Shown: positions 17,828 through 32,169, counted from the first letter of the stretch. The stretch: DNA of 64,000 bases from an uncultured Candidatus Saccharibacteria bacterium (GCA_964512315.1 CAZEIK010000004.1:8198-72197), one strand, 5' to 3'. The notes: a model not told the origin generated them from the letters alone. Program-made: numbers and translations.

Positions 17828-18829
17828 ATGTATATGAATCAAGCTTTGGACTTTTTGGCTGTAGGCGATACAGTAGTGGATGCATTTATAAAGTTAAAAG
17901 ACGCTCATGTGACTTGTACTGTTGACCATGGCGCATGCGAAATATGTATGCCTTTTGGAGCAAAAGTCCCTTATGAGAGCGTAACAATAATCCCAGCCGT
18001 AGGTAACTCGGCAAACGCTGCGGTATCTGCTGCAAGGCTTGGACTACAATCTGGCCTAGTTACATTCTTAGGTAATGATGTGAATGGTCGCGAATGCAAA
18101 TTCCAACTAGAACAAGAAAATGTAAACACTTCTTGTATTGTTATGGAGAATGGCAAGATAACTAATTATCACTATGTATTGTGGTTCGGTGATGAGAGAA
18201 CAATACTTATCAAACACGAAACGTTCAAAACTTTCCTCCCACCAATAGAAAAGCCTCCTCGTTGGATATATTTGTCATCTCTCGGCGAACATGCCAAAGA
18301 CTTACATTTTGAACTAGACAAATACTTAACAGCTAACCCAGAAGTTAAATTAGCCTTCCAACCAGGAACATTCCAAATCAAAATGGGTAAAGATTTATTA
18401 GCGCCAATATATAGCAAAACAGAATTCTTCTGCTGCAACGTAGAAGAAGCCATGCAAATATTAGGCACAGAGGTGCGTGATGTGACGACACTACTCTTAG
18501 GAATATCTCTACTAGGACCAAAAGTTGTATGCATAACTGACGGACACGAAGGCGCATACATGCGATGGAAAGACGAGAACTATTTCCTGCCTATATACCC
18601 TGACCCATTACCTCCACTCGAGAGAACTGGTGCTGGTGACGCGTTTGCTAGCACTTTTGCAGCAGCATTAGTTGCTGGACTAGACCCAGTAGAAGCTTTT
18701 AGATGGGGGCCCATCAACAGTATGAATGTTGTACAATATGTTGGTGCCCAAAAGGGTCTACTTAAGAAAAAAGACATAGAGAATCTGTTAAGCAGTGCCC
18801 CATCAGAGTACGTAGTTAAGAAAATCTAA
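17828..18829 (+). CDS. PfkB-family carbohydrate kinase
   Basis: 333 aa. C-terminal TGAGDAFASTFAAALVAG ribokinase-family signature. Confidence 0.75.
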   Translation: MYMNQALDFLAVGDTVVDAFIKLKDAHVTCTVDHGACEICMPFGAKVPYESVTIIPAVGNSANAAVSAARLGLQSGLVTFLGNDVNGRECKFQLEQENVNTSCIVMENGKITNYHYVLWFGDERTILIKHETFKTFLPPIEKPPRWIYLSSLGEHAKDLHFELDKYLTANPEVKLAFQPGTFQIKMGKDLLAPIYSKTEFFCCNVEEAMQILGTEVRDVTTLLLGISLLGPKVVCITDGHEGAYMRWKDENYFLPIYPDPLPPLERTGAGDAFASTFAAALVAGLDPVEAFRWGPINSMNVVQYVGAQKGLLKKKDIENLLSSAPSEYVVKKI

Positions 18830-19251
18830 AGCTTGATCTCTATTTTACCCTTTCTAATATAGAATTTTTCAGTATTACTACTTTTTTCCTTTACCACAAC
18901 CGATAGCAATCCTTCGTCTATTTCTTTTATTGTCATCGAGTCATTCTCACCATCAGCGAAACAATCGAACTCTTTTGGCTCGTTCAAAAGAATAATGCTT
19001 TGTATGAATAACTTATCTTCTAACAAGATACTTTTTAGAACAATATTGTGTTCTTGGTGGAGTCTCTCGACTGATATACCACTCATGATGCAAGGTATGT
19101 AACCATAAGGTGTGGATATATTTTTTTCTTCTTTTACTTTTATTTGAACTTTACTTGGTGTTGTCTTGGTTGCTTGGTCTTCGTTCTTAACATTGCCACT
19201 ACTTAACCAAAACTTTCCATTAAAAAAGTTATCTATATATTTTCCAAACAT
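18826..19251 (-). CDS. Hypothetical protein (last gene of the pentose-phosphate operon)
   Basis: 141-aa ORF overlapping the tktC stop by 19 nt. No recognisable motif. Confidence 0.35.
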   Translation of the reverse strand: MFGKYIDNFFNGKFWLSSGNVKNEDQATKTTPSKVQIKVKEEKNISTPYGYIPCIMSGISVERLHQEHNIVLKSILLEDKLFIQSIILLNEPKEFDCFADGENDSMTIKEIDEGLLSVVVKEKSSNTEKFYIRKGKIEIKL

Positions 19252-20219
19252 GTATTGATTATATCATCTACTGTCAGACCATATTCACCGTATAACTCCC
19301 CAACAGTTCCAGACTGACCAAATCTATCTTTTACTCCCATTCTTATTACTTTGTTGTGGCCTGTAGCCGAAGACAGGAACTCCGCCACAGCTGAGCCCAT
19401 TCCACCAAAGGCTTGATGCTCTTCTACTGTTATAAAAGTTTTGTATACATTGGCTAATCTAAAAATAGCTTCTTCTGGTAATGGTTTAATGCAAGAAATA
19501 TTAACTAGCACTACTTGTATATTTTGCTCTGCTAACTTTTTTGCTGCAAGTAAAGCGTTAAAAATTATAGGTCCTGTTGCTAATATACACACCTTCTTAG
19601 CGTGAGTCTCAATGCTAGAAAAGAGTATTTCTGGCTTTTTTAAATTCACCTGGCCATATTCATCTGAGAAAATCTTCGCTGACTTTTCTCTTGCTAGTCT
19701 TATATATACCGGACCTGGTATATCTTTTGCTAACTTAGTCATAAGATAAGCCTCCCTAGAATCGGCAGGAGACAATACTGTAATATTTGGAATAACTCTC
19801 ATAAGCGCAATATCTTCTAACGCTTGATGTGTTCCACCGTCTGGACCAACCGACAATCCTGCGTGAGCGCCAGCTATAATAACTTTAGAATCATTGTAGC
19901 AAATAGTCGTCCTAATCTGCTCCCAATTTCTTCCTGGGCTAAACATTGCATAGCTAGAAATGAATGGCTTCATACCCATTGCAGCCATACCGCTCGCCAC
20001 AGCCGCCATGTTCTGCTCCGTTATCCCAACCTCGACGAATCTAGAAGCAAATCTCTCTTTGAAAAGATGCATCTGCACACTTTCAGTTAAGTCGGCACAC
20101 AGTGCTGCAACCGTCTTATCCTCTTCACCAAGATCAACCAGAGCCTTACCAAACCCAACTCTAGTAGCCTCCATTTCGACTTCATTTGTAAAAATATTTT
20201 TATTTAACATATTATTCAA
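19233..20219 (-). CDS. Transketolase, C-terminal subunit (split transketolase)
   Basis: 328 aa. Pyrimidine-binding and C-terminal domains of transketolase. Overlaps the N-terminal subunit gene by 8 nt. Confidence 0.85.
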   Translation of the reverse strand: MNNMLNKNIFTNEVEMEATRVGFGKALVDLGEEDKTVAALCADLTESVQMHLFKERFASRFVEVGITEQNMAAVASGMAAMGMKPFISSYAMFSPGRNWEQIRTTICYNDSKVIIAGAHAGLSVGPDGGTHQALEDIALMRVIPNITVLSPADSREAYLMTKLAKDIPGPVYIRLAREKSAKIFSDEYGQVNLKKPEILFSSIETHAKKVCILATGPIIFNALLAAKKLAEQNIQVVLVNISCIKPLPEEAIFRLANVYKTFITVEEHQAFGGMGSAVAEFLSSATGHNKVIRMGVKDRFGQSGTVGELYGEYGLTVDDIINTCLENI

Positions 20220-21066
20220 GGTTTATTTTGCCTCCCATTGTTCTGATTGATTGTATCGCCTTTTTTGCTTCTTCACTATTTGGAGCTTTGCCATGCCAAT
20301 GATAATCCCCTTCTATCTGAGACCAGCCCTTACCCGGAATAGTGTGAGCAATTATTGCAGTTGGGTTAATACTATTACTCTTTGCAATATTAACTGCATC
20401 AACTATCTCCATCATGTTGTGTCCATCTATTTCTAGAACATTAAAATTAAACGCCTTCAACTTCTCCGACAAGCTTTCAAGCGGCATAACATCTTCTGTC
20501 CTGCCATCTATCTGTATTCCATTTCTATCTATTATTGTTATAACATTAGTTAGATTATATTTTGAAAGTGTTAGGAGCGCTTCCCAGACATTACCTTCAT
20601 TCATCTCACCGTCCCCCATCAAACAATAAAAATTCTTTGGCATTCCACCCATCATCCTATCAGCTAATGCCATGCCTGTTGCTTGCGAAAGTCCTGATCC
20701 AAGTGGACCGCTAGATGTCTCAACACTTTTTAGAAACTCGCGATGAGGATGACCTTGCAATCTACTTCTGAATTTTCTAAGTGTCTTTAGCTCACTAACT
20801 GGCAAGTATCCAGCATGTGCCATAGTTGCATACAGAACTGGACAAATATGTCCATTAGAAAGTATTAACCTGTCCCTGTGTGCCCAATCTGGACTAGATG
20901 GATCATGCTTAAGTATTTTAAAATATAAAGCAGTAAATACATCCGCCATACCGAGCGGGCCCGCAGTATGACCACTACCTGCTTCTAACAACATATCAAT
21001 AATTGAAAGCCTGATCTCTTTGGCTCGAGCTTCAAGCTTATGTATTTCTATGTCAGTAAGACTCAT
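20212..21066 (-). CDS. Transketolase, N-terminal (TPP-binding) subunit
   Basis: 284 aa. TPP-binding GDGEMNEGNVWEA motif. Confidence 0.85.
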   Translation of the reverse strand: MSLTDIEIHKLEARAKEIRLSIIDMLLEAGSGHTAGPLGMADVFTALYFKILKHDPSSPDWAHRDRLILSNGHICPVLYATMAHAGYLPVSELKTLRKFRSRLQGHPHREFLKSVETSSGPLGSGLSQATGMALADRMMGGMPKNFYCLMGDGEMNEGNVWEALLTLSKYNLTNVITIIDRNGIQIDGRTEDVMPLESLSEKLKAFNFNVLEIDGHNMMEIVDAVNIAKSNSINPTAIIAHTIPGKGWSQIEGDYHWHGKAPNSEEAKKAIQSIRTMGGKINLE

Positions 21067-21070
21067 CTGT

Positions 21071-21667
21071 CTAGTTTACTATGCTTTTTAACTTGCGGTA
21101 AGTGAATATCACATCAGACGCATTTTTAAGAGCACTCCCGACAACGAAGTTACTAGCCCCAGCATCTTTTACTGGTCTAATAGTCTCTTCATTCATCGCT
21201 CCATCAACCTGTATTACCTTATCAGTCACAGCCTTTATGTTTTTGATGTCATCTAATGCAGATTCTCTAAATGGCTGACCTTGGTGGCCCACATTCTCTA
21301 TTCCCATAACTTGCACATAGTCACAGTATTCAATGTTACTTTTAATCTCTTCCACTGTACCACATATTCCAACATTAATATCATATTGCTTAGCATATTC
21401 GTAAAGCTCTTTTATATTCTTGTTATGCTTCAGATGAAATACAATAAATGACGCACCCAAGTCTTTTACTTTTTCCACCAATCCAACATCTGCTTTTAAT
21501 AGCAAGTCGAATTCAAAGTCAAAAACATCCCAAAATTCTAGCTCTTCATCACCGTTAATTTTTAAATTAGTTACGTCTATTTGAACTCTTTTTGCGCAAT
21601 CAGCATATCTTGCTAACTGTCTATTTATTTCTGAAAAATTATTTTCAAGTATTGCTGGTATTATCAT
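21071..21667 (-). CDS. Divergent ribulose-phosphate 3-epimerase-family TIM-barrel protein
   Basis: 198 aa. Rpe-like blocks (…IDV.N…, VMGIENVGHQGQPF, IQVDGAMN). The N-terminal metal-binding His of canonical Rpe is not evident. Confidence 0.5.
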   Translation of the reverse strand: MIIPAILENNFSEINRQLARYADCAKRVQIDVTNLKINGDEELEFWDVFDFEFDLLLKADVGLVEKVKDLGASFIVFHLKHNKNIKELYEYAKQYDINVGICGTVEEIKSNIEYCDYVQVMGIENVGHQGQPFRESALDDIKNIKAVTDKVIQVDGAMNEETIRPVKDAGASNFVVGSALKNASDVIFTYRKLKSIVN

Positions 21668-21668
21668 T

Positions 21669-22124
21669 TTAATTGTCTATTTCTTCTACTCTTTGTATAT
21701 GCCTACCCCCTTCGAACTCCGTCTCAAGGAAAATATCTATAGCCCTATAACACTCCTCCTCTTCTACGAATCTATAACCAAATGATATGGCGTTTGCATC
21801 ATTGTGCTCGCGACCAAGACGAACTATATCTAGTGTCCCACCATAATAAGTCGTGCACCTAATACCCGACTGCCTATTCATTACTATTGCCTCACCTTCA
21901 CCGCTGCCACCAAATACAATAGCTCTTGAGTCTAGTCCATTTTGCAAATCATAACTTAATGCCTCTTTGGCTTGCTTGATAAAAGTAGGATAGTCATCGT
22001 GCTCATCATAAACATAAGCACCGCAGTCCTCCAACTCTACTTCTGGATACTTTTCTTTTAAATAAGCCAAAACTTTTTCTTTTAACTCAAACCCTGCATG
22101 ATCTGTAGCTAAATATATTTTCAT
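21669..22124 (-). CDS. rpiB: Ribose-5-phosphate isomerase B
   Basis: 151 aa. MKIYLATDHAGFELKEKV N-terminus is typical of RpiB/LacAB. Confidence 0.85.
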   Translation of the reverse strand: MKIYLATDHAGFELKEKVLAYLKEKYPEVELEDCGAYVYDEHDDYPTFIKQAKEALSYDLQNGLDSRAIVFGGSGEGEAIVMNRQSGIRCTTYYGGTLDIVRLGREHNDANAISFGYRFVEEEECYRAIDIFLETEFEGGRHIQRVEEIDN

Positions 22125-22125
22125 A

Positions 22126-23235
22126 CTAATCTCTTTTAATTAATTTACCTGCCTTAATAGCATGATCAACTAGGGTGTGAGTGTAGCCCATCTCATTGTC
22201 ATACCAAGCCAAAACCTTGACCAGGTTACCATCTACCACACGAGTCATCTTCAAGTCTGCAATGGATGCATATATACTGCCTTGTATGTCAGAGCTCACC
22301 AGCTCCTCATCTGTCGCATCGAATATCATTTTCCATCTGTCAGTCTGCGCAGCTTTTCTCAATATGTCATTAACCTCCTCGACTGTTGTGTCACGCTTTG
22401 CGATAAATGTTATATCTGCGATTGACCCAGCAGGAACTGGGACACGTATTGATATGCCGTCGAACTTACCAGCTAGAGACGTGAAGGCTTTGGTTACTGC
22501 AATTGCTGCACCAGTTGAAGACGGCACAATATTCTGCCCTCCTGCACGACCTTCACGAAAATCTTTTTTATTTGGACCATCCACAATAGACTGACTAGCT
22601 GTGTAGGCATGAGTTGTCGAAAGTATAGCCTTTTCTATTCCTATCGCTTCGTCCAATATCGCAATAACTGGTGACGAGGCATTAGTTGTACAAGACGCAT
22701 TAGAAGATATATCACAAGCTTGTAATTTGTCTTCGTTAACCCCAAGGAGAACAGTCTCGCCATTTACTGTTGCATCATCGCCAGGCTTAGCAGGTGCAGA
22801 TATGACCACTCTATTTGCTCCAGAGTCCAAGTGAACCTTTGCCTTATCCCAAGAAGTAAACAGTCCAGTACTCTCAATAACAACATCTATGTCCATCTCT
22901 TTCCAAGGTAACAATGTTGGATCTTTTTGTTGTACAAATTTAATACGATGATCTATATCTGTTTTGATTATTATGTATTTCTCAGTCTCACTTTTTTCTT
23001 CTACTTCTACATCAAAATCACTAACACCATATACTGTGTCGTACTTTAATAAATAGGCCATATTGTGTATGTCACCTAGGTCGTTAACAGCTACAACTTC
23101 TAGCTCTTTTCTTTCTATTGCAACCTTTAGGAATGCACGACCAATACGACCGAATCCGTTAATAGCAACTCTAGTTCTCTTTTGCCCTGTGATTATCTCA
23201 CTAGTTGTAATTGCGTGTTTTAATTTACTCAACAT
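22126..23235 (-). CDS. gap: Glyceraldehyde-3-phosphate dehydrogenase
   Basis: 369 aa. INGFGRIGR NAD-binding motif and the SNASCTTN active-site Cys. N-terminal extension plus internal insertions. Confidence 0.9.
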   Translation of the reverse strand: MLSKLKHAITTSEIITGQKRTRVAINGFGRIGRAFLKVAIERKELEVVAVNDLGDIHNMAYLLKYDTVYGVSDFDVEVEEKSETEKYIIIKTDIDHRIKFVQQKDPTLLPWKEMDIDVVIESTGLFTSWDKAKVHLDSGANRVVISAPAKPGDDATVNGETVLLGVNEDKLQACDISSNASCTTNASSPVIAILDEAIGIEKAILSTTHAYTASQSIVDGPNKKDFREGRAGGQNIVPSSTGAAIAVTKAFTSLAGKFDGISIRVPVPAGSIADITFIAKRDTTVEEVNDILRKAAQTDRWKMIFDATDEELVSSDIQGSIYASIADLKMTRVVDGNLVKVLAWYDNEMGYTHTLVDHAIKAGKLIKRD

Positions 23236-23283
23236 AATAATTTGAGTATAACATCAAGATAAGCTTATTATCCTACAGAAGCC

Positions 23284-23357
23284 ACAGAATTTGTGTCGAT
23301 GGGTGGGATCGAACCACCGGCCTGAGGCTTATGAGTCCTCCGCTCTAACCAACTGAG
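23284..23357 (-). tRNA. tRNA-Met or tRNA-Ile2 (anticodon CAU), elongator type
   Basis: Hand-folded cloverleaf on the minus strand. 7-bp acceptor GTCGATG/CATCGAC; D-arm GCTC-AGTTGGTTA-GAGC; anticodon loop CUCAUAA; T-arm GGTGG-TTCGATC-CCACC. C11:G24 is an elongator feature. One A31·G39 mismatch. CCA not encoded. Confidence 0.7.
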
Positions 23358-23420
23358 CTACATCGACGATGTTTAACAAAATAACATAAAACAGAAGAAA
23401 TTTCAATGCTTATTAAAACT

Positions 23421-24215
23421 CTACCTTACTATTACCTGACTTTCATAGAACCGAATATCGTCAAGTTGACCCGTAAAAGGTGAGCCGGATATTGAACCCA
23501 CCTTGAGAGTGTCGGAGTTTGTGTTACTTAAAAGAACTCCGTACGTAAATTGCTCTGCCACCCTAACACCGTCAAAATAAAAGGTGCCCAACCTTGTGCT
23601 AGAGTCAAAAGAAAAAACAACATGATGCCAATTAGTGTCAGTGACTACTACTGGAGAAGACCAGTCATAACCCCAGAAGCCAGCCATAAGATTATCGTAC
23701 CTAAACCCTAGAGCAAATTGCTGACCTCCTCCACCAGGTCCTTTTGAAACAAAGAAATTATTCACAGCCCCAAAATTACCAGTCCTTCTAAACCACAAAC
23801 TCACCGAAAAGCTTTTACCATCTAATTGAGGACTATTAACATTTTTACTTGCAACATAATTTGTTCCATCGAATAACAGTGAATACTGTGAAGATGATGA
23901 ATAAGTGTTCTGTGAGTAAGATACACCTGAAACAGGTATTGTTAGGTCGTTTTGAGGCACATTAGAGGTCTGATTAATACTTGTATCCTTAGCTAACAAC
24001 CCACCTCCTTCGTCAAAGTCATACTTAGTGGTTACGTCGTACCTCTTTTCCAAGTTAATAGCAAATTGTTTTAATTTCGTATCGTTAGCTCTAGCTAGAG
24101 CGTTTTTAAAAGAAGGTATTATTATTACCGACAATACACCTATGATTGCTATCACTACTATCAACTCTAGTAAAGTAAAACCCCGGACACGATATCTCAT
24201 GTTTTGAGTATACAT
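23421..24215 (-). CDS. Type IV pilin-like protein with a C-terminal LamG/ConA-like lectin domain
   Basis: 264 aa. Class III signal RGFTLLELIVVIAIIGVLSVIIIPSF (G|FTLLE). The C-terminus matches the laminin-G fold (…SVSLWFRR…, TNWHHVVFSFD…LGTFYFDGVRV). Confidence 0.7.
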   Translation of the reverse strand: MYTQNMRYRVRGFTLLELIVVIAIIGVLSVIIIPSFKNALARANDTKLKQFAINLEKRYDVTTKYDFDEGGGLLAKDTSINQTSNVPQNDLTIPVSGVSYSQNTYSSSSQYSLLFDGTNYVASKNVNSPQLDGKSFSVSLWFRRTGNFGAVNNFFVSKGPGGGGQQFALGFRYDNLMAGFWGYDWSSPVVVTDTNWHHVVFSFDSSTRLGTFYFDGVRVAEQFTYGVLLSNTNSDTLKVGSISGSPFTGQLDDIRFYESQVIVR

Positions 24216-24245
24216 ATATATATGTATATTGAAAGTGAATAACAG

Positions 24246-24275
24246 AAAAAGCAGTCGTTTTCGCGACTGCTTTTT
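24246..24275. terminator. Rho-independent terminator hairpin
   Basis: gcagtcg-tttt(cg)-cgactgc stem-loop with a 5' A-tract and a 3' T-tract. Confidence 0.55.
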
Positions 24276-24284
24276 CTATACTTG

Positions 24285-24355
24285 TTGCGGGAGGACGAAT
24301 CGAACGTCCGCCTGGAGGTTATGAGCCTCCCGAGCTACCTCTACTCAATCCCGCT
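24285..24355 (-). tRNA. Initiator-like tRNA-Met (anticodon CAU)
   Basis: Hand-folded. Acceptor G2–A7/T66–C71 with an unpaired A1·A72 (an initiator hallmark). A11:U24 in the D-stem (initiator feature). Anticodon stem GGAGG/CCTCC; loop CUCAUAA; T-arm GGACG-TTCGATT-CGTCC. Confidence 0.6.
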
Positions 24356-24383
24356 ATATCTATGTTTTTACAATAACATAGAT

Positions 24384-25772
24384 TTAAATAATTTTCAACT
24401 CTTTGAACACAGCTTCGTATTCTGCAAAGGCGCGCCTTGCGTCTCTTTGTGTTAAAGTAAACTTCATACCCTCATGAGCTATTCTGTTGCGCAGCTTGTG
24501 TGCGTCCCAAGCCAAATCAATAGATCGGAAATTAGCCTCTTTTAACATCTCACCCAGATCCTCACCCGGATAACCAGCTACTCTCAATGTATCGTGTAAT
24601 AGGTTGTCAGCCTCAAGTATTCCTATTCTCCATAATGTTTCGTGGTCAGCAGCCATATAATCCTCAATCATAGCCCAACGTGGATGTTTAACATATTCAA
24701 CCTCTTTTGGTGGTTGCACCTCATGAGCAACAACATGCGGATTGTGAGCATGAACCACCTCACTACTGTGGTCTTCATGGTCAGCTTTATGTTCGTCATG
24801 ATTATGCCCCTTATCAAATATGCCCTTGTATCCGATGGCGTCGTGGAATAAGTGCTCATAATGCTCTACTGCGTGCCTCATTCTCATGAACCATAAGTAA
24901 AAAATAAAAATAGTGATAGGTAACATAAATAAGCTGAGTAGAGTTAATATGTCAGAAAGAAAAGATAGGAAATGATTCTGTATCGAAAGGGTTAACCCGC
25001 CATCCCCAGAGCCAGCAACAGAATGTAGCACATCATTTACATTAGCAGAGTTATGGCTATCGGTAGGATATGGATCAATATTGTCATACATACCATCACC
25101 ATCAGTATCTCTATTGTTCGGGTCTGTGCCTATTAACTTTTCATAGTGATCACCAACACCGTCCCCATCAGTATCTACATCGTCGTAAGAATAAGTTCTA
25201 TATGGGTCAAGTGGGTACGCATCACGCCCATCCAATGTACCATCACCATCAGTGTCTCTATTAAGCGGGTCGGTACCTCTGAATAACTCATCACCATCAA
25301 GTATTCCGTCATGATCTGTATCTGGATTATTAGGATCCATATTCTTAGAGCTCTCAACACTGTCAGGTACGCCGTCACCATCAAAGTCTCTGGGTGACAT
25401 ACCTATCCACATTCTTAAGTGATCGGTCCAGGCTAGGTCGTTACCATATATTTCTTTTATTTGCTCAGTTGTTAGATTGTGAGCATCAAAAGTCTTTGGG
25501 TCTCTTATATCTGGTATACCATCACCGTCGGTGTCTTTGCTGGTATTGAATCCAATATTATCCAAGAAGTTTAAATTAGAAATTGGTTCTGTACTACTTG
25601 AGTTACTATTAAGCCAACCCCTCTCACGTAATCCGTCCCACTCTGGATCGGCAACACTGTTCAGATACTCCTCAGGAGACATTCTGCGAATCCAAAAATA
25701 CCAAGCGTATCTGAGCCATAAGAGTCCATCATAAACTCGGTTAAACAAATAATCTAAACTGAAAGAATACAC
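24384..25772 (-). CDS. Membrane protein with thrombospondin-type-3-like Ca-binding repeats, a His-rich linker and a C-terminal HEPN-like (Rx4H) domain
   Basis: 462 aa. At least six D(T/F)DGDG(I/V/T)PD repeats. One TM helix (LTLLSLFMLPITIFIFYLWFM). A His-rich stretch (HNHDEHKADHEDH…HAHNPHVVAHE). The C-terminal ~90 aa contain KLRNRIAHEG. Confidence 0.5.
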   Translation of the reverse strand: MYSFSLDYLFNRVYDGLLWLRYAWYFWIRRMSPEEYLNSVADPEWDGLRERGWLNSNSSSTEPISNLNFLDNIGFNTSKDTDGDGIPDIRDPKTFDAHNLTTEQIKEIYGNDLAWTDHLRMWIGMSPRDFDGDGVPDSVESSKNMDPNNPDTDHDGILDGDELFRGTDPLNRDTDGDGTLDGRDAYPLDPYRTYSYDDVDTDGDGVGDHYEKLIGTDPNNRDTDGDGMYDNIDPYPTDSHNSANVNDVLHSVAGSGDGGLTLSIQNHFLSFLSDILTLLSLFMLPITIFIFYLWFMRMRHAVEHYEHLFHDAIGYKGIFDKGHNHDEHKADHEDHSSEVVHAHNPHVVAHEVQPPKEVEYVKHPRWAMIEDYMAADHETLWRIGILEADNLLHDTLRVAGYPGEDLGEMLKEANFRSIDLAWDAHKLRNRIAHEGMKFTLTQRDARRAFAEYEAVFKELKII

Positions 25773-25779
25773 TAGTTAA

Positions 25780-27171
25780 TTATAAACCCTCTATATCGCT
25801 TGCGATAGTGAATAAGTGGTCTTCTTGACCCCATGACGCAAGAGCCTGGACACCAAAAGGTAACCCTTCTTTACTTCTACCAGTTGGAAACGATATTCCC
25901 GGCACTCCAACAATGTTAGCAGGAACAGTAAATATGTCAGCTAAATACATAGAAAGAGGGTCGTGCTTGTCGCCGAACTTCCAAGGAAGAACTGGGGAGG
26001 TCGGTGTTAGTATTATGTCTATATCCTTGAAAGCTTTTTCAAATTCTTGCTTTAAAAGATTACGAACTGATACAGCTTTGTAATAATAAGCATCATAGTA
26101 TCCACTAGAGAGTACATACGCACCAAGTAATGATCTACGTAACGGCTCCTCACCTAGTCCCGCTCCACGGCTTTGCATCATGCTCGCCGCTGGCGTGTCA
26201 GCGCTCACATGCTTACCATATCTAACACCTTCGAATCTAGCCAAATTACTACTAACTTCTGCTGGCATCAATATGTAATATACAGCTAACGCCTTTTCTA
26301 TATTCTTAATATCAACTGGCACTATCTCGTAACCTGCGGACTTTAAGAAGTCTATAGTTTTATTAAAATTCTCTTTTACTTCTGCATCGACACCGTCTTG
26401 ATTGACAAACATTTGAGGTACACCAACCTTTTTTCTAAAAGCCTTCTTCTCTATCTCATTAATCGTGGTCGCATCCTTAACGTCCTTGCCTGATATTGTT
26501 TGGAATATTATCTTCGCATCTTCTACAGAGTTAGTGAATGAGCCTATGACATCCAAAGATGATCCCATAGCTATAAGACCATAACGACTAACTGATCCAT
26601 ATGTTGGTTTTAGCCCTACCGTACCAGTAAAGCTCGCTGGCTGCCTAATACTGCCTCCAGTGTCAGATCCTAGTGACACAGGCACTCCACCATACGCAAC
26701 AACAGCAGCTGAGCCTCCAGAAGACCCACCCGGAACCCTAGTCATGTCTATTGGGTTAAGAGTTTTCTTATACGCACTATTCTCAGTTGAACTACCCATA
26801 GCGAACTCATCCATGTTGGCACGCCCAACTATGACTGCACCAGCTTCACGTAACTTTCTTACAACAGTCGCATCATATGTAGCTGTGTAATTCTCTAACA
26901 TCTTGCTGCCTGCACTAGCAATGTGCCCTTTTACACAAATATTATCTTTAAGAACTATAGGAACACCTGTCATGTCTACATTCTTACCTGATTGCCACAT
27001 AGCCTCTGCAATAGCAACTTGTGCCTCTATGTCAGCATCAGAATATAACTCCAACAATGCACCAACTTGCTGATCTTTTTCTTTTATTATATTTACAAAG
27101 TCAAAAACTGTTTTAGAAACTCCGTCCTGCTTAATCTTATCTTTTATATTTAAAATTGTTGAAGCTTTCAT
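25780..27171 (-). CDS. gatA: Glutamyl-tRNA(Gln)/Aspartyl-tRNA(Asn) amidotransferase subunit A
   Basis: 463 aa. Amidase signature GGSSGGSAA. Confidence 0.9.
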   Translation of the reverse strand: MKASTILNIKDKIKQDGVSKTVFDFVNIIKEKDQQVGALLELYSDADIEAQVAIAEAMWQSGKNVDMTGVPIVLKDNICVKGHIASAGSKMLENYTATYDATVVRKLREAGAVIVGRANMDEFAMGSSTENSAYKKTLNPIDMTRVPGGSSGGSAAVVAYGGVPVSLGSDTGGSIRQPASFTGTVGLKPTYGSVSRYGLIAMGSSLDVIGSFTNSVEDAKIIFQTISGKDVKDATTINEIEKKAFRKKVGVPQMFVNQDGVDAEVKENFNKTIDFLKSAGYEIVPVDIKNIEKALAVYYILMPAEVSSNLARFEGVRYGKHVSADTPAASMMQSRGAGLGEEPLRRSLLGAYVLSSGYYDAYYYKAVSVRNLLKQEFEKAFKDIDIILTPTSPVLPWKFGDKHDPLSMYLADIFTVPANIVGVPGISFPTGRSKEGLPFGVQALASWGQEDHLFTIASDIEGL

Positions 27172-27175
27172 AAAT

Positions 27176-27466
27176 TTACTGCTTGATTACTTGAGACACT
27201 TTGTAATAACCATTTTGAGACTCTGGCGCATTCTTTAAAGCCATCTCTCTGTGACCAGCGTCTTCTAGCACAATGTCCCCTTTATAAACATCGTGCGGAG
27301 TACCATCATTAACCTGTCCAACTTCTACAGAAGACGTGTCAACTGACTGCACCTCTTTTATATAATTTAAAATATCGCCGATTTGTTTAGCGTAAAGCTC
27401 GCGCTTGCTATCATCAATTTTTACTTTAGCTAGTCCTTCTAAATAATTTATTACCTCTGTATCCAT
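27176..27466 (-). CDS. gatC: Amidotransferase subunit C
   Basis: 96 aa, immediately upstream of gatA. GatC-like N-terminus. Confidence 0.8.
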   Translation of the reverse strand: MDTEVINYLEGLAKVKIDDSKRELYAKQIGDILNYIKEVQSVDTSSVEVGQVNDGTPHDVYKGDIVLEDAGHREMALKNAPESQNGYYKVSQVIKQ

Positions 27467-27473
27467 CTGATGA

Positions 27474-29456
27474 TTATAACATTTTTTGATAATCCTCGAA
27501 ATTGATTACTTTCACGCCCAGCCTGGTCGCGTCATCTAATTTACTGCCAGGGTCCTGTCCACACAAAAGATATGAAGTTTTGCCACTAACACTACTAGAT
27601 ACTTTTCCTCCATGTGACTCGATTTCATTTTTAATAATGTCTCTAGATATCTCAAAAGACCCAGTAATAACAAATGTTTTACCCTCTAGCGCTTGTGAAA
27701 TATTTATATTTTTGACTTTATTTACTTTTATATATGAGAGCAGGTCATCTACAAGCTTCTTACTTTTAGCGTTATTAAAAAATGCCACCAGGCTCTTAGC
27801 AGACTCTTCACCTATATTTGGAGTTTGTAATAATTGTTCTAAGGAAGCATCTCTTAAAGCTGTAAAGCTTTTAAAATACTTCGCTAACTCTTTTGCTGTC
27901 GTTTCTCCTATGTGACGAATACCTAACGAGTATATAAAATTATCCAACTCCACAACCTTGCTGCCCTGTATTGAGTTGATTATGTTCTCAGCGCTCTTCT
28001 TGCCGTAACCGAATAGTCCCTCTATGTCGCTCACTTTTAATTCATATATACTAGCTGCATCTGTTATAAGGCCAAGCTCTGCGAACTCATATATTATCTT
28101 CTCTCCTAGTCCTTCTATATTCATTCCTTTCTTAGAGACAAAATGCACAAGTGACTCGAGATGCTTAGCATTACAATCTGGATTCAAACAATATAGAGCA
28201 ACTGATCCATCTAACTTTTGCAACTTAGAATTACATGTCGGACAATTTGTTGGCATCTCAAATGCGTGTGACCCTTTAGGTCTCAAACTTAAGACAACCT
28301 CTAACACCTCCGGTATAATGTCTCCTGCTTTTTGTAGTATTACAGTATCACCAACACGTACATCTAGTCTTTGTATCTCGTCAGGATTATGCAATGTAGC
28401 ACGCGAGACAGTGCTGCCCGCAATTAGAACTGGCGAAAGATTGGCAACCGGAGTGATAGCGCCAGTGCGCCCGACTTGGCAGACAATACTCTCGATAACA
28501 CTTGTTGCTTGTTCAGCGGGGAACTTATAAGCAATACCAGCACGAGGACTCTTGGCTGTGTAGCCAAGTGACTCAAAAATCTCTCTCTCGTTAACTTTTA
28601 CAACCATACCATCAACACCAAATTCAAAGTTGCCCCTAATCTCTTTCCAAGTGTCGTAAATATCTTGAACCTCTTTTATACCTCTGGCATATTTAGATTC
28701 CGAGTTCACCATGAACCCTAAATCTTTGAGAAGCTCTAACTCTTCTATTTGTGTTGGTGGCAAGTCCAAGCTATACATATCAATATCATATGCAAAATAA
28801 TGCAGCTTTCTAGACGATGCAGCACTGGAGTCTAGCTGTCTCAATGTTCCTGCTGCCAAGTTACGTGGATTAGCGTACTTCTCCTCTCCTTCTTTTAATT
28901 TTTGGTTGAACTTCTCAAAATCAGACTTTTTAATAAAACATTCACCTATTACTATTATGTCTACACTTTTGTTTAACTTGAGCGGTACTGACTTTATAGT
29001 TCTAACATTATGAGTCACATCTTCACCAACCTCCCCGTCACCACGAGTAGCAGCTTGGACCAATTCTCCACTCTTATAAGTCAGAACTAATTTTAGTCCG
29101 TCAATCTTAAACTCACAAACATAACTTGGCTTTATGCTAATATTAGACTTATTTAAAATGGTTAAGTTCCTTTCTTCCCAATTTGAAAGCTCCTCAAAGT
29201 TAAATACATTATCGAAACTCCATTGTCTGGTTGCGTGTTTAACTTTTTTAAAGCTATCAATTACTTCTCCGCCAACCCTCTGAGATGGAGAATTCTTGTC
29301 ATACATACTTGGATACTTAGCTTCAAGAGAGACTAGTTCAGTCATCATGGTGTCATAAGCCTCATCACTAATAGTTGGCCTATCCAGAACATGATAAGCA
29401 TATCTATGTTTCTCCAGTTCGTCTCTTAACTTAAGCAATCTCTCTTGTTCAGTCAT
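27474..29456 (-). CDS. ligA: NAD-dependent DNA ligase
   Basis: 660 aa. Adenylation motif KIDGLKL and a C-terminal zinc finger (CPTCNSKL…C…C), followed by HhH and BRCT regions. Confidence 0.92.
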   Translation of the reverse strand: MTEQERLLKLRDELEKHRYAYHVLDRPTISDEAYDTMMTELVSLEAKYPSMYDKNSPSQRVGGEVIDSFKKVKHATRQWSFDNVFNFEELSNWEERNLTILNKSNISIKPSYVCEFKIDGLKLVLTYKSGELVQAATRGDGEVGEDVTHNVRTIKSVPLKLNKSVDIIVIGECFIKKSDFEKFNQKLKEGEEKYANPRNLAAGTLRQLDSSAASSRKLHYFAYDIDMYSLDLPPTQIEELELLKDLGFMVNSESKYARGIKEVQDIYDTWKEIRGNFEFGVDGMVVKVNEREIFESLGYTAKSPRAGIAYKFPAEQATSVIESIVCQVGRTGAITPVANLSPVLIAGSTVSRATLHNPDEIQRLDVRVGDTVILQKAGDIIPEVLEVVLSLRPKGSHAFEMPTNCPTCNSKLQKLDGSVALYCLNPDCNAKHLESLVHFVSKKGMNIEGLGEKIIYEFAELGLITDAASIYELKVSDIEGLFGYGKKSAENIINSIQGSKVVELDNFIYSLGIRHIGETTAKELAKYFKSFTALRDASLEQLLQTPNIGEESAKSLVAFFNNAKSKKLVDDLLSYIKVNKVKNINISQALEGKTFVITGSFEISRDIIKNEIESHGGKVSSSVSGKTSYLLCGQDPGSKLDDATRLGVKVINFEDYQKML

Positions 29457-29475
29457 TTGCCTACATTATAACAAA

Positions 29476-30102
29476 TTAATTGTATCTTTTGACCACTACA
29501 CGCTCAACCCTAGAAGTAGAGTCGCAAGGAACTTTGCCGCGACCAATAATGAGTACCGCACCAGTAGAAGTTGTGTGCATTTCTATCTCAGCGCAAGCAA
29601 ATCTTGGAAAGTCAGCCCTCTTTATGCTAACCAACACTTTTGCACCCCCAGAATATGTAGCTATATTAGACGCGGATATTGTTGTAGTTGATTGATAATC
29701 AGCAGTTGAGGCAGTACTAGTTCCTGGTGCAGAAGATAAAGCTGTGAACGATAATGGAAATAGTGGCACATCAAAGCAACCAACAGTAGTCGGATCTACA
29801 TAAGGAAAATTACCAGTATTAGAATCAAAATGCGTAGAGATAAATGACGTGATTACTGGGAAAATACTTCGATTAATATCAGGATTTGGGCTATTTTTAA
29901 AATTTTTAAACACTGATTCCGCACACATCATAGATGAGTCAGCAAGTGAGGCTGCTACTCTTGTGTCATAGCTGATATTGCTCTCTCTTAGGTCTCTTAA
30001 CATTATTATAGTAATAGCAATAGTAAGGGTCAGTAAGACCGCCACCACTATCATAGCTATACCTAATACGAAACCTCTATTTTTATTTCTATTGATATAC
30101 AT
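29476..30102 (-). CDS. Minor pilin / pseudopilin-like protein (lacks Glu+5; GspK/PilX-like)
   Basis: 208 aa. N-terminal RGFVLGIAMIVVAVLL hydrophobic segment without the conserved Glu. Last gene of the minor-pilin block. Confidence 0.5.
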   Translation of the reverse strand: MYINRNKNRGFVLGIAMIVVAVLLTLTIAITIIMLRDLRESNISYDTRVAASLADSSMMCAESVFKNFKNSPNPDINRSIFPVITSFISTHFDSNTGNFPYVDPTTVGCFDVPLFPLSFTALSSAPGTSTASTADYQSTTTISASNIATYSGGAKVLVSIKRADFPRFACAEIEMHTTSTGAVLIIGRGKVPCDSTSRVERVVVKRYN

Positions 30103-30697
30103 AAGATGTTACTTGCATTTTATCATTACATATTCCTCTGTCATAACAAACAGTCGATATAACTTTCACTCCTGTATACCACTGATTATTGCTAGACCTG
30201 TCTTTCCATCTATCAACTCTCTGCATAGATATGTATCTTGAGAATCTTGTGCTTGTAGCAGTTGAGTTACAGACAAATTCTCCACTACTGTTGTTATACA
30301 AAATAGTGCACGATGGATTGTCTGTGTATGTAGCAAGTGTAGGAATAAAAGATGTCTTATCGAATCTGCAATAATTAGCACCAGCGTCTACACAATAAGA
30401 CATTTTATTTAGAAACATCGGAAAAGAAGTGGTAGCAGCCGAAGGTCCGAGTGCACACTCGTCAACGCCTGGATTAGTAGTACAATATGTCTCTAGAGAC
30501 TTTCTAAAAAAGATCACCAGCTCCACACCCTCATTAGCTAGATACGTAGCTTGGGCTCTAGTACTAGCAAGCCTAGAAACTTTTTCTATCTGATAAGTAA
30601 GAGCAAGAGGCGCAATTATTACTATCATAAGTATAGTAATAGCAACCATTGCTTCTACTAGAATAAAACCTTGATTTTGTTTTTTAATTTTAAACAT
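30089..30697 (-). CDS. Minor type IV pilin
   Basis: 202 aa. Prepilin motif QGFILVEAMVAITIL. Confidence 0.65.
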   Translation of the reverse strand: MFKIKKQNQGFILVEAMVAITILMIVIIAPLALTYQIEKVSRLASTRAQATYLANEGVELVIFFRKSLETYCTTNPGVDECALGPSAATTSFPMFLNKMSYCVDAGANYCRFDKTSFIPTLATYTDNPSCTILYNNSSGEFVCNSTATSTRFSRYISMQRVDRWKDRSSNNQWYTGVKVISTVCYDRGICNDKMQVTSYVYQ

Positions 30698-30698
30698 A

Positions 30699-31436
30699 CT
30701 AATTTTCTGGCTCTCTTTGTGTTATGGTTGTCTGTACAGAAAAAGGAACTATAGGTCTCGTGTTAGTCTCACCTTCTATAACTATCTGAATAAATGCTTG
30801 ACCTATGTTAGAAGAATCATCCACGTATGAGCCAGTGTTAGTAGCTGTCACTAAAAACTTTTTTACTTTTATGCTGGATGGTAATATTGTCTCATTTCTT
30901 GAATTAGAAAAATACCCTTCATTATTATAATCAATACTTCCGTTAAACCCTCCACGATTAAAAAATGTCATGTTAACATTATCTGATCCGTCAACATTAA
31001 CTAGCCCAGAGTATCTTCTTATTGTTCCATCTTGCAAGACATACCCTGCACGCCTAACTGGATTAGTGTATGTTGGGTCAGTGGTAGAGGCGTAATAAGC
31101 ACTGTACTCAGATGGAGTAAATGCTATGCCGTACTGACCCAAATCACAGTCACGAGCTTTGTTCAAGTTGGTTGGAACTGGGGAAGAAATTATAAACTCA
31201 TTTGATGGTAAACATCTATACTTAGTTCCTTGAGATATTTCACGCACCATATCGTCCAATACAAGATTAACTGCTTCATATACATTTCTACTAGCTGCCA
31301 ACCTGTCATTAGTTGCATTGGCTCCAAAAATTATAGTAGTTACAAGAAGAGCTACAAACGAGAACACGCTCACCGCTATCAACAACTCTGTCAAAGTAAA
31401 ACCTTTTATTTTCAATTTTAAAGTAAATAACTTCAT
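30699..31436 (-). CDS. Minor type IV pilin
   Basis: 245 aa. Prepilin motif KGFTLTELLIAVSVF. Confidence 0.65.
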   Translation of the reverse strand: MKLFTLKLKIKGFTLTELLIAVSVFSFVALLVTTIIFGANATNDRLAASRNVYEAVNLVLDDMVREISQGTKYRCLPSNEFIISSPVPTNLNKARDCDLGQYGIAFTPSEYSAYYASTTDPTYTNPVRRAGYVLQDGTIRRYSGLVNVDGSDNVNMTFFNRGGFNGSIDYNNEGYFSNSRNETILPSSIKVKKFLVTATNTGSYVDDSSNIGQAFIQIVIEGETNTRPIVPFSVQTTITQREPEN

Positions 31437-31440
31437 GTTA

Positions 31441-32169
31441 CTAATAAATAGGTGTGGTTGGGCAGCGTGTCTGAAGGACTCTTATCTCACCAGTAGACCT
31501 TACAACTATAGACCTTTGTTGGCTTGTAGTTGCTAGTCCTGGCTGAGTGAATTCTAAGCATACGTTGCTGTGAGGATTTTTATATTTTGTTCTGAAGTCA
31601 TTAATAAAAGTGTTACTAGTGATTCTTGCGTCAAGCTTCGGTCTATTGAATACAATCTCTACATCTTTCCAGCCACTTGCCCCACAGGCAAAACCTAAAA
31701 CTTCTCTACCTGGGTCATAAACATCGTAACTTGGATACTCTTCATATGTCTCGTAACCGTAACATATGTCAGTCAACATAATGCCATTAAGAAAAGTTTT
31801 AGATGTTGTCGCCTCAACAGACGGACCATCCCAAACATAATTAGATGTTCCTATGCCAGAAATAGTAGAAGACGAGTCAATTTTGTCTTGGAATAAATAG
31901 TAATTATAAGGTGCGTTATTGCTTAAGTACACACCGTCCCCTTTTGCAGTGCTGCCACCACGGGACGCTCCGTATATTTGTATCTCTTTTAGCTGTGCTG
32001 CGAAGTCACTAACTCCCGTACTAAAACTAACGAACTTATTAGTAGATGGATATGTTCCATACATAGTGGTAGCTAGTATTGAAATAATAGCCATCGATAT
32101 CATCATCTCAATCACAGTAAAGCCTCTATCTAAGACTAACTTTAATTTTTTATTAATAGAGAATTTCAT
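31441..32169 (-). CDS. Minor type IV pilin
   Basis: 242 aa. Prepilin motif RGFTVIEMMISMAII. Confidence 0.65.
   Translation of the reverse strand: MKFSINKKLKLVLDRGFTVIEMMISMAIISILATTMYGTYPSTNKFVSFSTGVSDFAAQLKEIQIYGASRGGSTAKGDGVYLSNNAPYNYYLFQDKIDSSSTISGIGTSNYVWDGPSVEATTSKTFLNGIMLTDICYGYETYEEYPSYDVYDPGREVLGFACGASGWKDVEIVFNRPKLDARITSNTFINDFRTKYKNPHSNVCLEFTQPGLATTSQQRSIVVRSTGEIRVLQTRCPTTPIY

What the first reader, a model, noticed from the sequence alone, without database searches (positions are those of the whole stretch)
23421..24215. Type IV pilin with a C-terminal LamG (ConA-like) lectin domain sharing an identical 25-aa N-terminus with the two major pilins 9 kb away
The pilin N-terminus RGFTLLELIVVIAIIGVLSVIIIPSF is amino-acid-identical to the two major pilins at 32940..34260, but it is encoded with different codons. 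It is fused to a ~200-aa jelly-roll domain (…SLWFRR…TNWHHVVFSFD…FYFDGVRV), giving an adhesin or tip-pilin candidate. The identical processing/assembly segment suggests it is incorporated into the same fibre. It could serve carbohydrate or host attachment in an episymbiont lifestyle (speculation).
Basis: partly seen in the sequence, partly recalled or inferred. Interest (0 to 1): 0.55.

Follow-up and report, generated by a model that had tools for sequence, protein, structure and literature searches.

The report
Lectin-headed type IV pilin gene cassette
This gene in an uncultured ultra-small (CPR/Patescibacteria) bacterium encodes a pilus subunit whose normal head is replaced by a lectin-like LamG domain, an already catalogued kind of pilus adhesin, but this copy is a small accessory gene cassette that two different species share with identical DNA.

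Summary
ORF 23421..24215 (-) has a prepilin N-terminus (Pfam N_methyl) and a LamG domain (Laminin_G_3, E 2.3e-18). The AlphaFold2 model (pLDDT 89.7) is one helix (15-58) followed directly by a beta-sandwich (61-258). Its best solved match is the sugar-binding domain 4 of the AbnA arabinanase.

The 25 residues GFTLLELIVVIAIIGVLSVIIIPSF match both putative major pilins exactly. Of these 25 codons, 19-20 differ and every difference is synonymous.

This is a modular type IV pilin. The prepilin + PF13385 architecture is among the 15 commonest modular pilin architectures, and S. sanguinis PilC is the studied analogue. I therefore file it as a new member of a known kind. Co-assembly into the fibre and adhesion remain inferences.

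- The start codon is probably ATG 24200.
- The pilin part is only the alpha1 helix.
- The gene is an ~835-bp promoter+ORF unit inserted between two tRNA-Met genes. That site is empty in three related genomes, and homologues sit elsewhere in others.
- A 1070-bp block (23290..24359) is 100% identical in a second species whose flanks differ by 25-30%. This is seen in four independent assemblies and implies recent horizontal exchange.

Organism: Paceibacteria-like CPR, lifestyle unknown. Interest is moderate.

The parts
23421..24200 (-). LamG-headed type IV prepilin CDS: 259-aa precursor from ATG 24200. The mechanical ORF extends to 24215, giving 264 aa. Residue numbers in this report use the 264-aa ORF.
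   Evidence: start codon
24180..24200 (-). Leader peptide MRYRVRG, ending in Gly(-1). The predicted PilD cleavage site lies before Phe13.
   Evidence: sequence; N_methyl / TIGR02532 match
24108..24182 (-). 25 codons (G12-F36) identical in amino acids to both major pilins and differing only synonymously. Contains Glu at mature position 5.
24042..24173 (-). alpha1 helix (residues 15-58 in the model). This is the entire pilin module.
23442..24035 (-). LamG / ConA-like beta-jelly-roll head (residues 61-258; Pfam Laminin_G_3 at 116-258)
23646..23765 (-). Most variable stretch of the head among the window protein and 17 of its ~50%-identity homologues (residues 151-190). Candidate ligand-facing surface (inference).
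24207..24212 (-). TATACT -10-like box 6 nt before ATG 24200, with no Shine-Dalgarno sequence. Implies an own promoter and probably a leaderless mRNA. The ~45 nt upstream are homologous between cassettes at other sites.
24242..24279 (-). 16-bp terminator-like hairpin after the upstream tRNA (z -7.5). It is ancestral to the site, because it is also present in the empty sites.
24284..24355 (-). tRNA-Met (CAT) upstream of the cassette
23293..23367 (-). tRNA-Met (CAT) downstream of the cassette. Its promoter-like TTGAAA-17-TATTTT lies at 23406..23378.
23408..24241 (-). Approximate inserted unit (~835 bp: promoter + ORF + 13 nt), absent from the tRNA-Met/tRNA-Met site of L100, L103 and L064. Boundaries are from my reading of the printed sequences. 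The automatic alignment placed the gap at 24269..23433.
23290..24359 (.). 1070-bp block that is 100% identical (0-2 SNPs) in a second species whose flanks differ at 74/300 and 91/300 positions
32153..32932 (-). Prepilin peptidase PilD (A24_N_bact + Peptidase_A24)
32940..33557 (-). Putative major pilin 1 (205 aa, 6 Cys) with the same alpha1N
33664..34260 (-). Putative major pilin 2 (198 aa, 6 Cys) with the same alpha1N
34339..41093 (-). T4aP machine: PilC (T2SSF), PilT, PilB (T2SSE), a 108-aa ORF, PilO, PilN, PilM
29476..32169 (-). Three recognisable minor pilin genes plus one 208-aa ORF after pilD. Their N-termini are divergent.

Best explanation
The gene encodes a modular type IV pilin. Its pilin part is reduced to the class III signal peptide plus the alpha1 helix, and its globular head is a LamG (ConA-like) jelly-roll.

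Proposed course (steps 1-5 inferred, none tested here; step 6 is comparative evidence shown here):
1. The gene is transcribed from its own promoter, probably as a leaderless mRNA starting at ATG 24200.
2. The prepilin inserts into the membrane through its hydrophobic alpha1N.
3. PilD (32153..32932) cuts after Gly12 (MRYRVRG|FTLLE) and methylates Phe1, giving a 252-aa mature subunit with Glu5.
4. The first 24 mature residues are those of the two putative major pilins. The single PilMNO/PilB/PilT/PilC machine therefore polymerises it into the same fibre as an occasional subunit. It is isomorphous in the helical core, and the operon's own minor pilins do the priming.
5. The roughly 200-aa LamG head is displayed on the fibre and binds a ligand, most likely a glycan. 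PilT-driven retraction then turns this into adhesion or pulling.
6. The gene is not a fixed part of the pilus regulon. It is a self-contained ~835-bp promoter+ORF cassette that occupies different sites in related genomes and has very recently been exchanged between two species. An alpha1N that barely varies across the clade would let such a head function on whatever pilus the recipient makes.
For: Shown here:
- Prepilin motif and LamG domain.
- Model with pLDDT 89.7 and pTM 0.82: helix 15-58, then a beta-sandwich to 258, with no pilin beta-sheet head.
- Foldseek best single-domain match is AbnA domain 4 (5HON, TM 0.68 on the target, E 2.5e-8). Other matches are NTNHA/BoNT HcN, the trans-sialidase lectin domain, neurexin LNS2, the NanA carbohydrate-binding domain, pentraxins and laminin LG.
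- The profile search of PDB sequences agrees.
- PilD, PilB, PilT, PilC, PilM/N/O and two major-type pilins lie on the same strand 5-17 kb away.
- 25/25 identical alpha1N residues, with 19-20 codons differing only synonymously.
- alpha1N is nearly invariant across the window protein and 17 of its ~50%-identity homologues, while head residues 151-190 are hypervariable.
- All homologues are intact and share the architecture.
- -10 boxes lie 6-7 nt before the ATG in the homologues, as in many genes of the window.
- Cassette behaviour: empty sites in L100, L103 and L064, and other sites in L086, L089, L106 and L108.
- Identical 1070-bp block in a second species, seen in four assemblies.

From the literature:
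- IPR012902+PF13385 is a top-15 modular pilin architecture predicted to bind carbohydrate (PMC8179133).
- Saccharibacteria pili mediate host binding, and Saccharibacteria are naturally competent (PMC11623550).
Against: - No expression, processing, piliation or binding data exist for this protein.
- The head lacks the canonical pilin alpha/beta-roll that makes the outer-layer contacts in solved filaments. Whether a LamG head packs in the shaft is untested.
- The protein has no Cys, whereas the major pilins have six each.
- The gene lies outside the pil operon, behind a strong terminator.
- No ligand-binding residues could be assigned. LamG domains also bind proteins, steroids or nothing.
- S. 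sanguinis PilC (7OA7/7OA8) did not appear among the listed sequence or Foldseek hits. The analogy is therefore at superfamily level only.
- Related genomes keep the pil locus without this gene at this site, so it is dispensable for piliation.
Confidence: 0.7

Rival explanations
1. Membrane-anchored surface lectin. The prepilin-type N-terminus serves only as a PilD-processed membrane anchor or export signal, and the LamG domain works at the cell surface without entering a filament. This would resemble archaeal class III signal-peptide binding proteins, or the many prepilin-N-terminus proteins of PVC bacteria.
For: The gene is orphan, sits outside the pil operon and is dispensable at this site in relatives. 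There is no canonical pilin head. The architecture alone cannot separate anchoring from polymerisation.
Against: A mere anchor would not need residue-for-residue identity with the major pilins, kept against 19-20 synonymous codon changes and across the window protein and 17 homologues. Glu5, the residue used in subunit-subunit pairing, is conserved (E17 is invariant). A 44-residue helix plus a single domain would barely clear a cell envelope.
Confidence: 0.13
2. Alternative major subunit. Under some condition the protein homopolymerises on the same machine into a second, thicker, lectin-coated filament, as Thermus and TM7x make two pilus types.
For: The alpha1N is the same as in the major pilins. 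The mature size (252 aa) is not far from the major pilins (195 and 188 aa). The gene has its own promoter. Some relatives carry two copies.
Against: There is no disulfide or D-region and no canonical head to build outer-layer contacts. The gene is absent from this site in related genomes that keep the pil locus. Known lectin-type modular pilins are minor subunits (PMC9934059).
Confidence: 0.08
3. Tip-only adhesin. The protein joins the priming complex with the operon's minor pilins and sits exclusively at the pilus tip, like PilC/PilB in the PilABC complex of S. sanguinis.
For: Bulky modular pilins are argued to be tip-located, and the PilABC complex is modelled at the tip (PMC8179133, PMC9934059).
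Against: In the window, the operon minor pilins, which by analogy with other systems form the priming complex, have divergent alpha1N. This protein instead has the major-pilin alpha1N with Glu5. It is not in the operon and is not needed for the locus to persist. There is no Ig-like spacer module as in PilC.
Confidence: 0.07
4. The cross-species identity is an assembly artefact: contigs made chimeric at the conserved tRNA genes.
For: tRNA genes are classic chimera points. Three contigs (L096, L097, L098) end at or within about 70 nt of the edges of the block.
Against: The same junctions, with the same flank SNP positions, occur in four samples assembled by three pipelines: Logan (two samples), JGI and ENA k141. 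Both junctions are crossed in single contigs (L083, L095). The tRNAs inside the block are 0/72 and 0/75 different, whereas equally distant species differ at 5/72 and 13/75.
Confidence: 0.02

Closest known systems
Modular type IV pilins of architecture IPR012902 (prepilin N-terminus) + PF13385 (Laminin_G_3), catalogued by Raynaud et al. 2021 (PMC8179133)
   Same: Same two Pfam/InterPro signatures in the same order. [quoted passage not shown]
   Different: None of that class has been characterised. Here the pilin module is only the alpha1 helix. Some relatives (P0042, 359 aa) keep a T2SSG-type pilin head before the LamG domain. The cassette-like mobility shown here is not described in that paper.
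Streptococcus sanguinis PilC (PDB 7OA7/7OA8; Shahin et al. 2023, PMC9934059)
   Same: A type IV pilin with a short pilin moiety carrying a ConA-like lectin/glucanase-superfamily module. [quoted passage not shown]
   Different: PilC is 52.8 kDa when processed and has an extra Ig-like module. It is encoded in the pil locus, is essential for piliation, and is modelled in a PilABC tip complex. The window protein is about half that size, has no Ig module, is an orphan gene dispensable at its site, and has the major pilins' alpha1N. No PilC hit appeared in the listed sequence-profile or Foldseek matches.
Nanosynbacter lyticus TM7x PilX1 (Grossman et al. 2024 preprint, PMC11623550)
   Same: A CPR minor pilin with a C-terminal beta-jelly-roll resembling L-type lectins, proposed to bind host cell-wall glycans.
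   Different: PilX1 lies in the essential T4P-1 locus, keeps a globular pilin domain, has no predicted PilD signal, and its jelly-roll is not recognised by domain databases. The window protein is an orphan, has a textbook class III signal, and hits Laminin_G_3 well above threshold.
Non-core minor pilins of Neisseria (PilV, PilX, ComP), recalled from my own knowledge
   Same: Low-abundance pilins with a major-pilin-like alpha1N that co-polymerise into the fibre and add a function (adhesion, aggregation, DNA binding) without being needed for priming.
   Different: They keep a canonical pilin fold with small functional surface features rather than a grafted domain. The resemblance is a lead, not a test.
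Laminin_G_3 / LamG carbohydrate-binding modules: AbnA domain 4 (PDB 5HON), and the R. josui arabinofuranosidase Laminin_G_3 CBM (Sakka et al. 2019, cited in PMC10066038)
   Same: Closest solved fold for the head: TM 0.68 on the target (Foldseek E 2.5e-8) and profile E 1.7e-15. These modules bind oligosaccharides.
   Different: They are appended to secreted glycoside hydrolases, not to a pilin helix. Sequence identity is only about 15%, and the binding residues were not compared.

Membership tests
Type IV pilin (class III signal peptide protein) | Short basic leader ending in Gly(-1), followed by Phe(+1) and Glu(+5) in a hydrophobic stretch of about 21 residues | tested here: met
   MRYRVRG|FTLLELIVVIAIIGVLSVIIIPSF. 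Pfam N_methyl 1.4e-7 and TIGR02532 6.9e-7. G12, F13, T14, L15 and E17 are invariant in 38 homologues.
Type IV pilin (class III signal peptide protein) | Long N-terminal alpha1 helix of about 50 residues | tested here: met
   Model helix 15-58, pLDDT about 90.
Type IV pilin (class III signal peptide protein) | Globular alpha/beta-roll head with an antiparallel beta-sheet packed on alpha1C | tested here: not met
   The jelly-roll starts at residue 61, directly after the helix. LamG repeat units in other proteins align to profile positions of about 55-265.
Type IV pilin (class III signal peptide protein) | Cognate prepilin peptidase and assembly ATPase/platform in the genome | tested here: met
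   PilD, PilB, PilT, PilC and PilM/N/O at 32153..41093.
Type IV pilin (class III signal peptide protein) | Cleavage by PilD and polymerisation into a filament | not testable with these tools
   Needs biochemistry or pili proteomics.
Modular pilin (Raynaud et al. 2021 definition) | [quoted passage not shown] | tested here: met
   N_methyl + Laminin_G_3. The same pair is precomputed in about 40 homologues.
LamG / ConA-like lectin-glucanase superfamily (PF13385) | Sequence match above the curated threshold | tested here: met
   67.2 bits against 27.6. PDB profile hit to neurexin LNS at 1e-16.
LamG / ConA-like lectin-glucanase superfamily (PF13385) | Two-sheet beta-jelly-roll fold | tested here: met
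   Strands span 61-258 in the model. 335 Foldseek PDB matches at E<=0.001; the 50 listed are almost all LamG/ConA-like jelly-roll domains.
LamG / ConA-like lectin-glucanase superfamily (PF13385) | Carbohydrate (or Ca2+-dependent ligand) binding | not testable with these tools
   No binding residues could be assigned. Needs a glycan array or ITC.
S. sanguinis PilC-type lectin pilin | Pilin + Ig-like module + lectin module | tested here: not met
   There is no room for an Ig module, because the helix runs straight into the LamG domain.
S. sanguinis PilC-type lectin pilin | Encoded in the pil locus and required for piliation | tested here: not met
   The gene lies 8.7 kb from the pilins, separated by LigA, GatCA, a membrane protein and a tRNA. 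The site is empty in L100, L103 and L064, which keep the locus. The piliation requirement itself is not testable here.
S. sanguinis PilC-type lectin pilin | Detectable homology of the lectin module to 7OA7/7OA8 | tested here: inconclusive
Integron-type or transposon-type mobile cassette | Adjacent integrase or transposase, attC-like site or terminal repeats | tested here: not met
   Only housekeeping genes and tRNAs flank it in the window. The boundaries of the two insertion sites share no repeat on inspection. A serine recombinase lies 2 kb from one copy in L106, but it was not linked to the cassette.

The most novel reading that the evidence does not exclude
The nearly invariant alpha1N acts as a universal adaptor. 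In this CPR clade, pilus-displayed heads (LamG and others) travel as minimal promoter+ORF cassettes that drop in behind terminators and are swapped between species by recombination. A recipient instantly displays a new adhesin on its resident pilus. The 1070-bp block shared at 100% by two species with 25-30% divergent flanks would then be a very recent gene-specific sweep of one such adhesin, perhaps tracking a shared host or substrate.
Probability: 0.35. Interest if true: 0.6.

Novelty: new member of a known kind. Interest (0 to 1): 0.4.

Why it matters
Attachment is central to CPR biology, and how their type IV pili recognise targets is largely unknown.

This locus offers a compact test case. 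It has one pilus machine, two hypervariable major pilins, and an orphan subunit that is just a helix plus a lectin-like domain.

The domain is small enough to express and screen against glycans. The shaft-or-tip question can be addressed by filament modelling or cryo-EM.

The comparative data add an evolutionary point that can be tested on existing metagenomes. The adhesin head behaves as accessory, relocating DNA that was exchanged recently between species. The assembly helix stays frozen, and the major pilin heads diversify within a species.

If this pattern is general, host or substrate range in these bacteria could shift by swapping a one-kilobase cassette.

Tried and rejected
- The search of 1.84 billion representatives with A2 was swamped by giant multi-LamG proteins (889,676 hits). 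It said nothing about the architecture's frequency, only that the LamG unit spans profile positions of about 55-265.
- The metagenome contigs exact-pattern scan found nothing. The protein-based scan found only 24-37% identical LamG domains.
- Gene conversion as the cause of the identical N-terminus is rejected, because 19-20 of 25 codons differ.
- Foreign base composition is rejected: GC is 0.375-0.40 against 0.39 for the window.
- A chimeric contig as the cause of the cross-species identity is rejected after four independent assemblies showed the same junctions.
- tRNA flanking as a general property of the family is rejected. The homologues examined for tRNAs (L086, L089, L001, L002, L012) are not flanked by tRNA genes.
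- Assignment to Saccharibacteria is rejected. The best named RpoB relatives are Parcubacteria/Paceibacterota.
- A literature search for leaderless translation in Patescibacteria found nothing.

Full report
**1. The observation**

The ORF at 23421..24215 (-) is real (264 aa). Pfam finds N_methyl (residues 9-32, E 1.4e-7) and Laminin_G_3 (116-258, E 2.3e-18, 67 bits against a cutoff of 27.6). NCBIfam finds the prepilin cleavage/methylation domain.

The 25 residues GFTLLELIVVIAIIGVLSVIIIPSF are identical in the two pilins at 32940..33557 and 33664..34260. Of these 25 codons, 20 differ from pilin 1 and 19 differ from pilin 2, amounting to 25 and 23 of 75 nt. Every change is synonymous.

This excludes recent gene conversion and shows strong purifying selection. 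Similarity runs on to residue 45 (31/39). The minor pilins of the operon have quite different N-termini.

There are two small corrections:
- The 26-residue string beginning with R fits pilin 1 only.
- The real start is probably ATG 24200. Homologues begin MR... A 99.9% identical strain has GTG at 24215. A TATACT box sits at 24212..24207, 6 nt before ATG 24200.

**2. Anatomy of the protein**

With the 38-sequence alignment A2, AlphaFold2 gives a confident model (mean pLDDT 89.7, pTM 0.82). It has one helix (15-58) followed immediately by beta-strands from 61 to 258. There is no canonical pilin beta-sheet head, so the LamG jelly-roll is the head.

Foldseek against the PDB returns 335 matches at E<=0.001. 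The listed matches are almost all ConA-like or LamG jelly-rolls. The best single-domain match is the carbohydrate-binding domain 4 of Geobacillus AbnA (5HON, TM 0.68 on the target). After it come the HcN domains of NTNHA and clostridial neurotoxins, trans-sialidase lectin domains, neurexin LNS2, the NanA carbohydrate-binding domain, pentraxins and laminin LG.

Profile searches of PDB sequences agree: neurexin 1e-16, AbnA 1.7e-15, 4QVS 2.6e-13. The mature protein would be 252 aa with no cysteine. The major pilins are 195 and 188 aa with six cysteines each.

**3. Surroundings**

All on the minus strand, in order:
- PilM, PilN, PilO, a 108-aa ORF, PilB, PilT and PilC.
- The two pilins, then PilD.
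- Three recognisable minor pilins plus one further ORF.
- LigA, GatC/GatA and a TSP3-repeat membrane protein.
- tRNA-Met, a 16-bp terminator hairpin, the LamG pilin and a second tRNA-Met.
- GAPDH and pentose-phosphate genes.

The base composition of the gene is ordinary.

RpoB at 798..4004 is 76-78% identical to proteins named from Parcubacteria, Pacebacteria, Nomurabacteria and Paceibacterota MAGs. The organism is therefore a Paceibacteria-like member of the CPR, not a Saccharibacterium. Its lifestyle is not known from these data.

**4. Relatives**

The exact protein is in public data. Eighteen homologues of about 50% identity and about twenty of 23-36% have the same two-domain architecture, and all are intact.

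Among the window protein and 17 of its ~50%-identity homologues, the alpha1N is almost invariant. Head residues 151-190 are the most variable. Some more distant relatives keep a T2SSG-type pilin head before the LamG domain (P0042), so the helix-only form is a trimmed version.

Other orphan pilins in the clade carry a nearly identical leader and alpha1N (1-2 conservative substitutions) on unrelated heads (P0027, P0029, P0031, P0045).

**5. The gene is an accessory cassette**

- Different sites. Homologues sit in different places, always away from pil genes: Wzy_C|gene|TsaD (L086), GyrA|gene|PF1765-like (L089), Pyr_redox|gene|FtsZ and Pth|gene on one contig (L106), and RpoC|gene|rpsN (L108).
- A reciprocal empty site. 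L086 is syntenic with window 49406..63617 (12 genes, 62-92% amino-acid identity). Yet the window has only 200 bp where L086 has its copy, and the two LamG pilins are only 50% identical.
- Empty tRNA sites. Three genomes have the window's gene order from the pilins to GAPDH but nothing except the hairpin and the tRNA promoter between the two tRNA-Met genes. The spacers are 79-80 bp in L100 and L103 and 64 bp in L064.
- Size of the insert. In the window it is about 835 bp: promoter, ORF and 13 nt.
- The promoter travels with the gene. The ~45 nt upstream of the ATG are homologous between cassettes at different sites, and in several cases (window, L086, L108) the insert directly follows a terminator hairpin.
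- No recombinase is associated in the window.

**6. Recent exchange between species**

A 1070-bp block (24359..23290) contains both tRNAs, the hairpin, the gene and all spacers. It is identical in contig L083, whose flanks differ from the window at 74/300 and 91/300 positions. The neighbouring proteins in L083 are 78-85% identical to the window's.

The same flank variants joined to the same cassette (0-2 SNPs) occur in L095 (JGI), L096 (ENA) and L097 (Logan). That makes four samples and three assembly pipelines. A chimeric contig is therefore very unlikely.

Species at a similar distance (L100, L103) differ at 5/72 and 13/75 positions in these tRNAs. The tRNAs therefore belong to the transferred tract.

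Recombination is evidently common in this population. Strain L092 is 100% identical to the window over 20008..25772 and 96-97% over GatA-LigA. It is only 71% and 88% identical in the two major pilin genes.

Natural competence and allelic exchange are documented for Saccharibacteria (PMC11623550). For this lineage they are an inference.

**7. Mechanism**

The best-supported reading is a PilD-processed subunit polymerised by the one T4aP machine into the same fibre as the major pilins, displaying a lectin-like head.

- Shown: motif, fold, machinery, purifying selection, conservation and cassette behaviour.
- Inferred: cleavage, co-assembly, position in the fibre and ligand.

The major-pilin-type alpha1N with Glu5, the presence of separate operon minor pilins and the dispensability of the gene all argue for an occasional fibre subunit. 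This is comparable to the non-core minor pilins of Neisseria (my own knowledge) rather than to a priming or tip pilin. A tip location is not excluded.

A glycan ligand is suggested by the AbnA and Laminin_G_3 carbohydrate-binding modules and by S. sanguinis PilC. No binding residues could be identified.

**8. Comparison with what is known**

Modular pilins were defined by Raynaud et al. 2021. Their InterPro census lists IPR012902+PF13385 among the 15 commonest of 264 architectures, many of them from CPR phyla, and predicts carbohydrate binding (PMC8179133).

S. sanguinis PilC is a solved ConA-like lectin pilin. It is described as part of a glycan-binding minor-pilin complex that is modelled at the pilus tip (PMC9934059). 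TM7x PilX1 is a CPR minor pilin with a jelly-roll proposed to bind host glycans (PMC11623550).

The window protein meets the definitions of type IV pilin (except the canonical head), modular pilin and LamG domain. It does not meet the PilC-specific features: Ig module, operon location and requirement for the locus.

It is a new member of a known kind. The cassette mobility and the cross-species identity are, as far as my searches show, not described.

**9. Verdict**

- Interest is moderate (0.4). The protein type is expected in CPR genomes, but the locus is a clean example of an adhesin head that moves while the assembly helix stays fixed.

Noticed in passing
window 23290..24359; L083 2622..3691; also L095, L096, L097: A 1070-bp block (tRNA-Met, hairpin, LamG pilin, tRNA-Met) is 100% identical (0-2 SNPs) in a second species. 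That species' flanking DNA differs at 25-30% of positions and its neighbouring proteins are 78-85% identical. The block is seen in four samples from three assembly pipelines.
   Followed up: yes
window 55863..56064 compared with L086 ~9925..10762; window ~23408..24241 compared with L100 9790..9868, L103 19277..19356 and L064 19220..19283: Reciprocal empty and occupied sites. The window lacks the LamG pilin that L086 has between Wzy_C and TsaD. L100, L103 and L064 lack the one the window has between the two tRNA-Met genes.
   Followed up: yes
whole window; for example 9350..10930, 13432..13902, 18826..19251, 35549..36607, 36635..38389: About 24 of 54 genes have a TATAAT-like box ending 6-10 nt before the start codon, and only about 5 have a Shine-Dalgarno-like motif. 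Leaderless mRNAs may be the rule in this organism. A literature search for this in Patescibacteria found nothing.
   Followed up: partly
window 32940..34260 compared with L092 1..1217: Between two strains that are 97-100% identical elsewhere, major pilin 1 is only 71% and pilin 2 only 88% identical in DNA. The divergence lies in the head and the alpha1N is unchanged. The database holds many pilin-1 variants with hypervariable C-terminal halves (P0041, P0046, P0049, P0057, P0063, P0064).
   Followed up: partly
window 20008..34300 compared with L092: The identity between the two strains is a mosaic: 100% over 20008..25772, 96-97% over GatA-LigA, and 90-95% over the minor pilins and PilD. This suggests frequent recombination tracts.
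   Followed up: partly
P0027, P0029, P0031, P0045 (relatives, not in the window): Other orphan pilins (169-199 aa) carry leaders and alpha1N that are nearly the same (MRYTVRGFTLLELIVVIAIIG...; 1-2 conservative substitutions) on unrelated heads with no Pfam domain. This looks like a repertoire of heads on one adaptor helix.
   Followed up: partly
L106 3925..4719 and 10479..10719; recombinase at 239..1960: One contig of a relative carries two LamG pilin genes 6 kb apart. A large serine recombinase (Resolvase + Recombinase domains) lies 2 kb upstream of the first.
   Followed up: no
window 24384..25772: A 462-aa membrane protein with bacterial TSP3 (calcium-binding) repeats lies directly upstream. 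It is 78% identical in species B. In L064, 116 aa of a 198-aa ORF in the same position (just before the tRNA pair) align to its C-terminal part at 39% identity; a similar fragment matches in L065.
   Followed up: no
window 41486..43450: A 654-aa ORF with no Pfam match lies just upstream of pilM. An ORF of 646 aa occupies the same position in L103. It may be an uncharacterised pilus-associated protein.
   Followed up: no
window 23293..23367 and 24284..24355: Two different tRNA genes carry the CAT anticodon and form a conserved tandem pair in relatives. Which one is initiator, elongator or tRNA-Ile2 was not determined. tRNA2 shows many differences between species (13/75).
   Followed up: no
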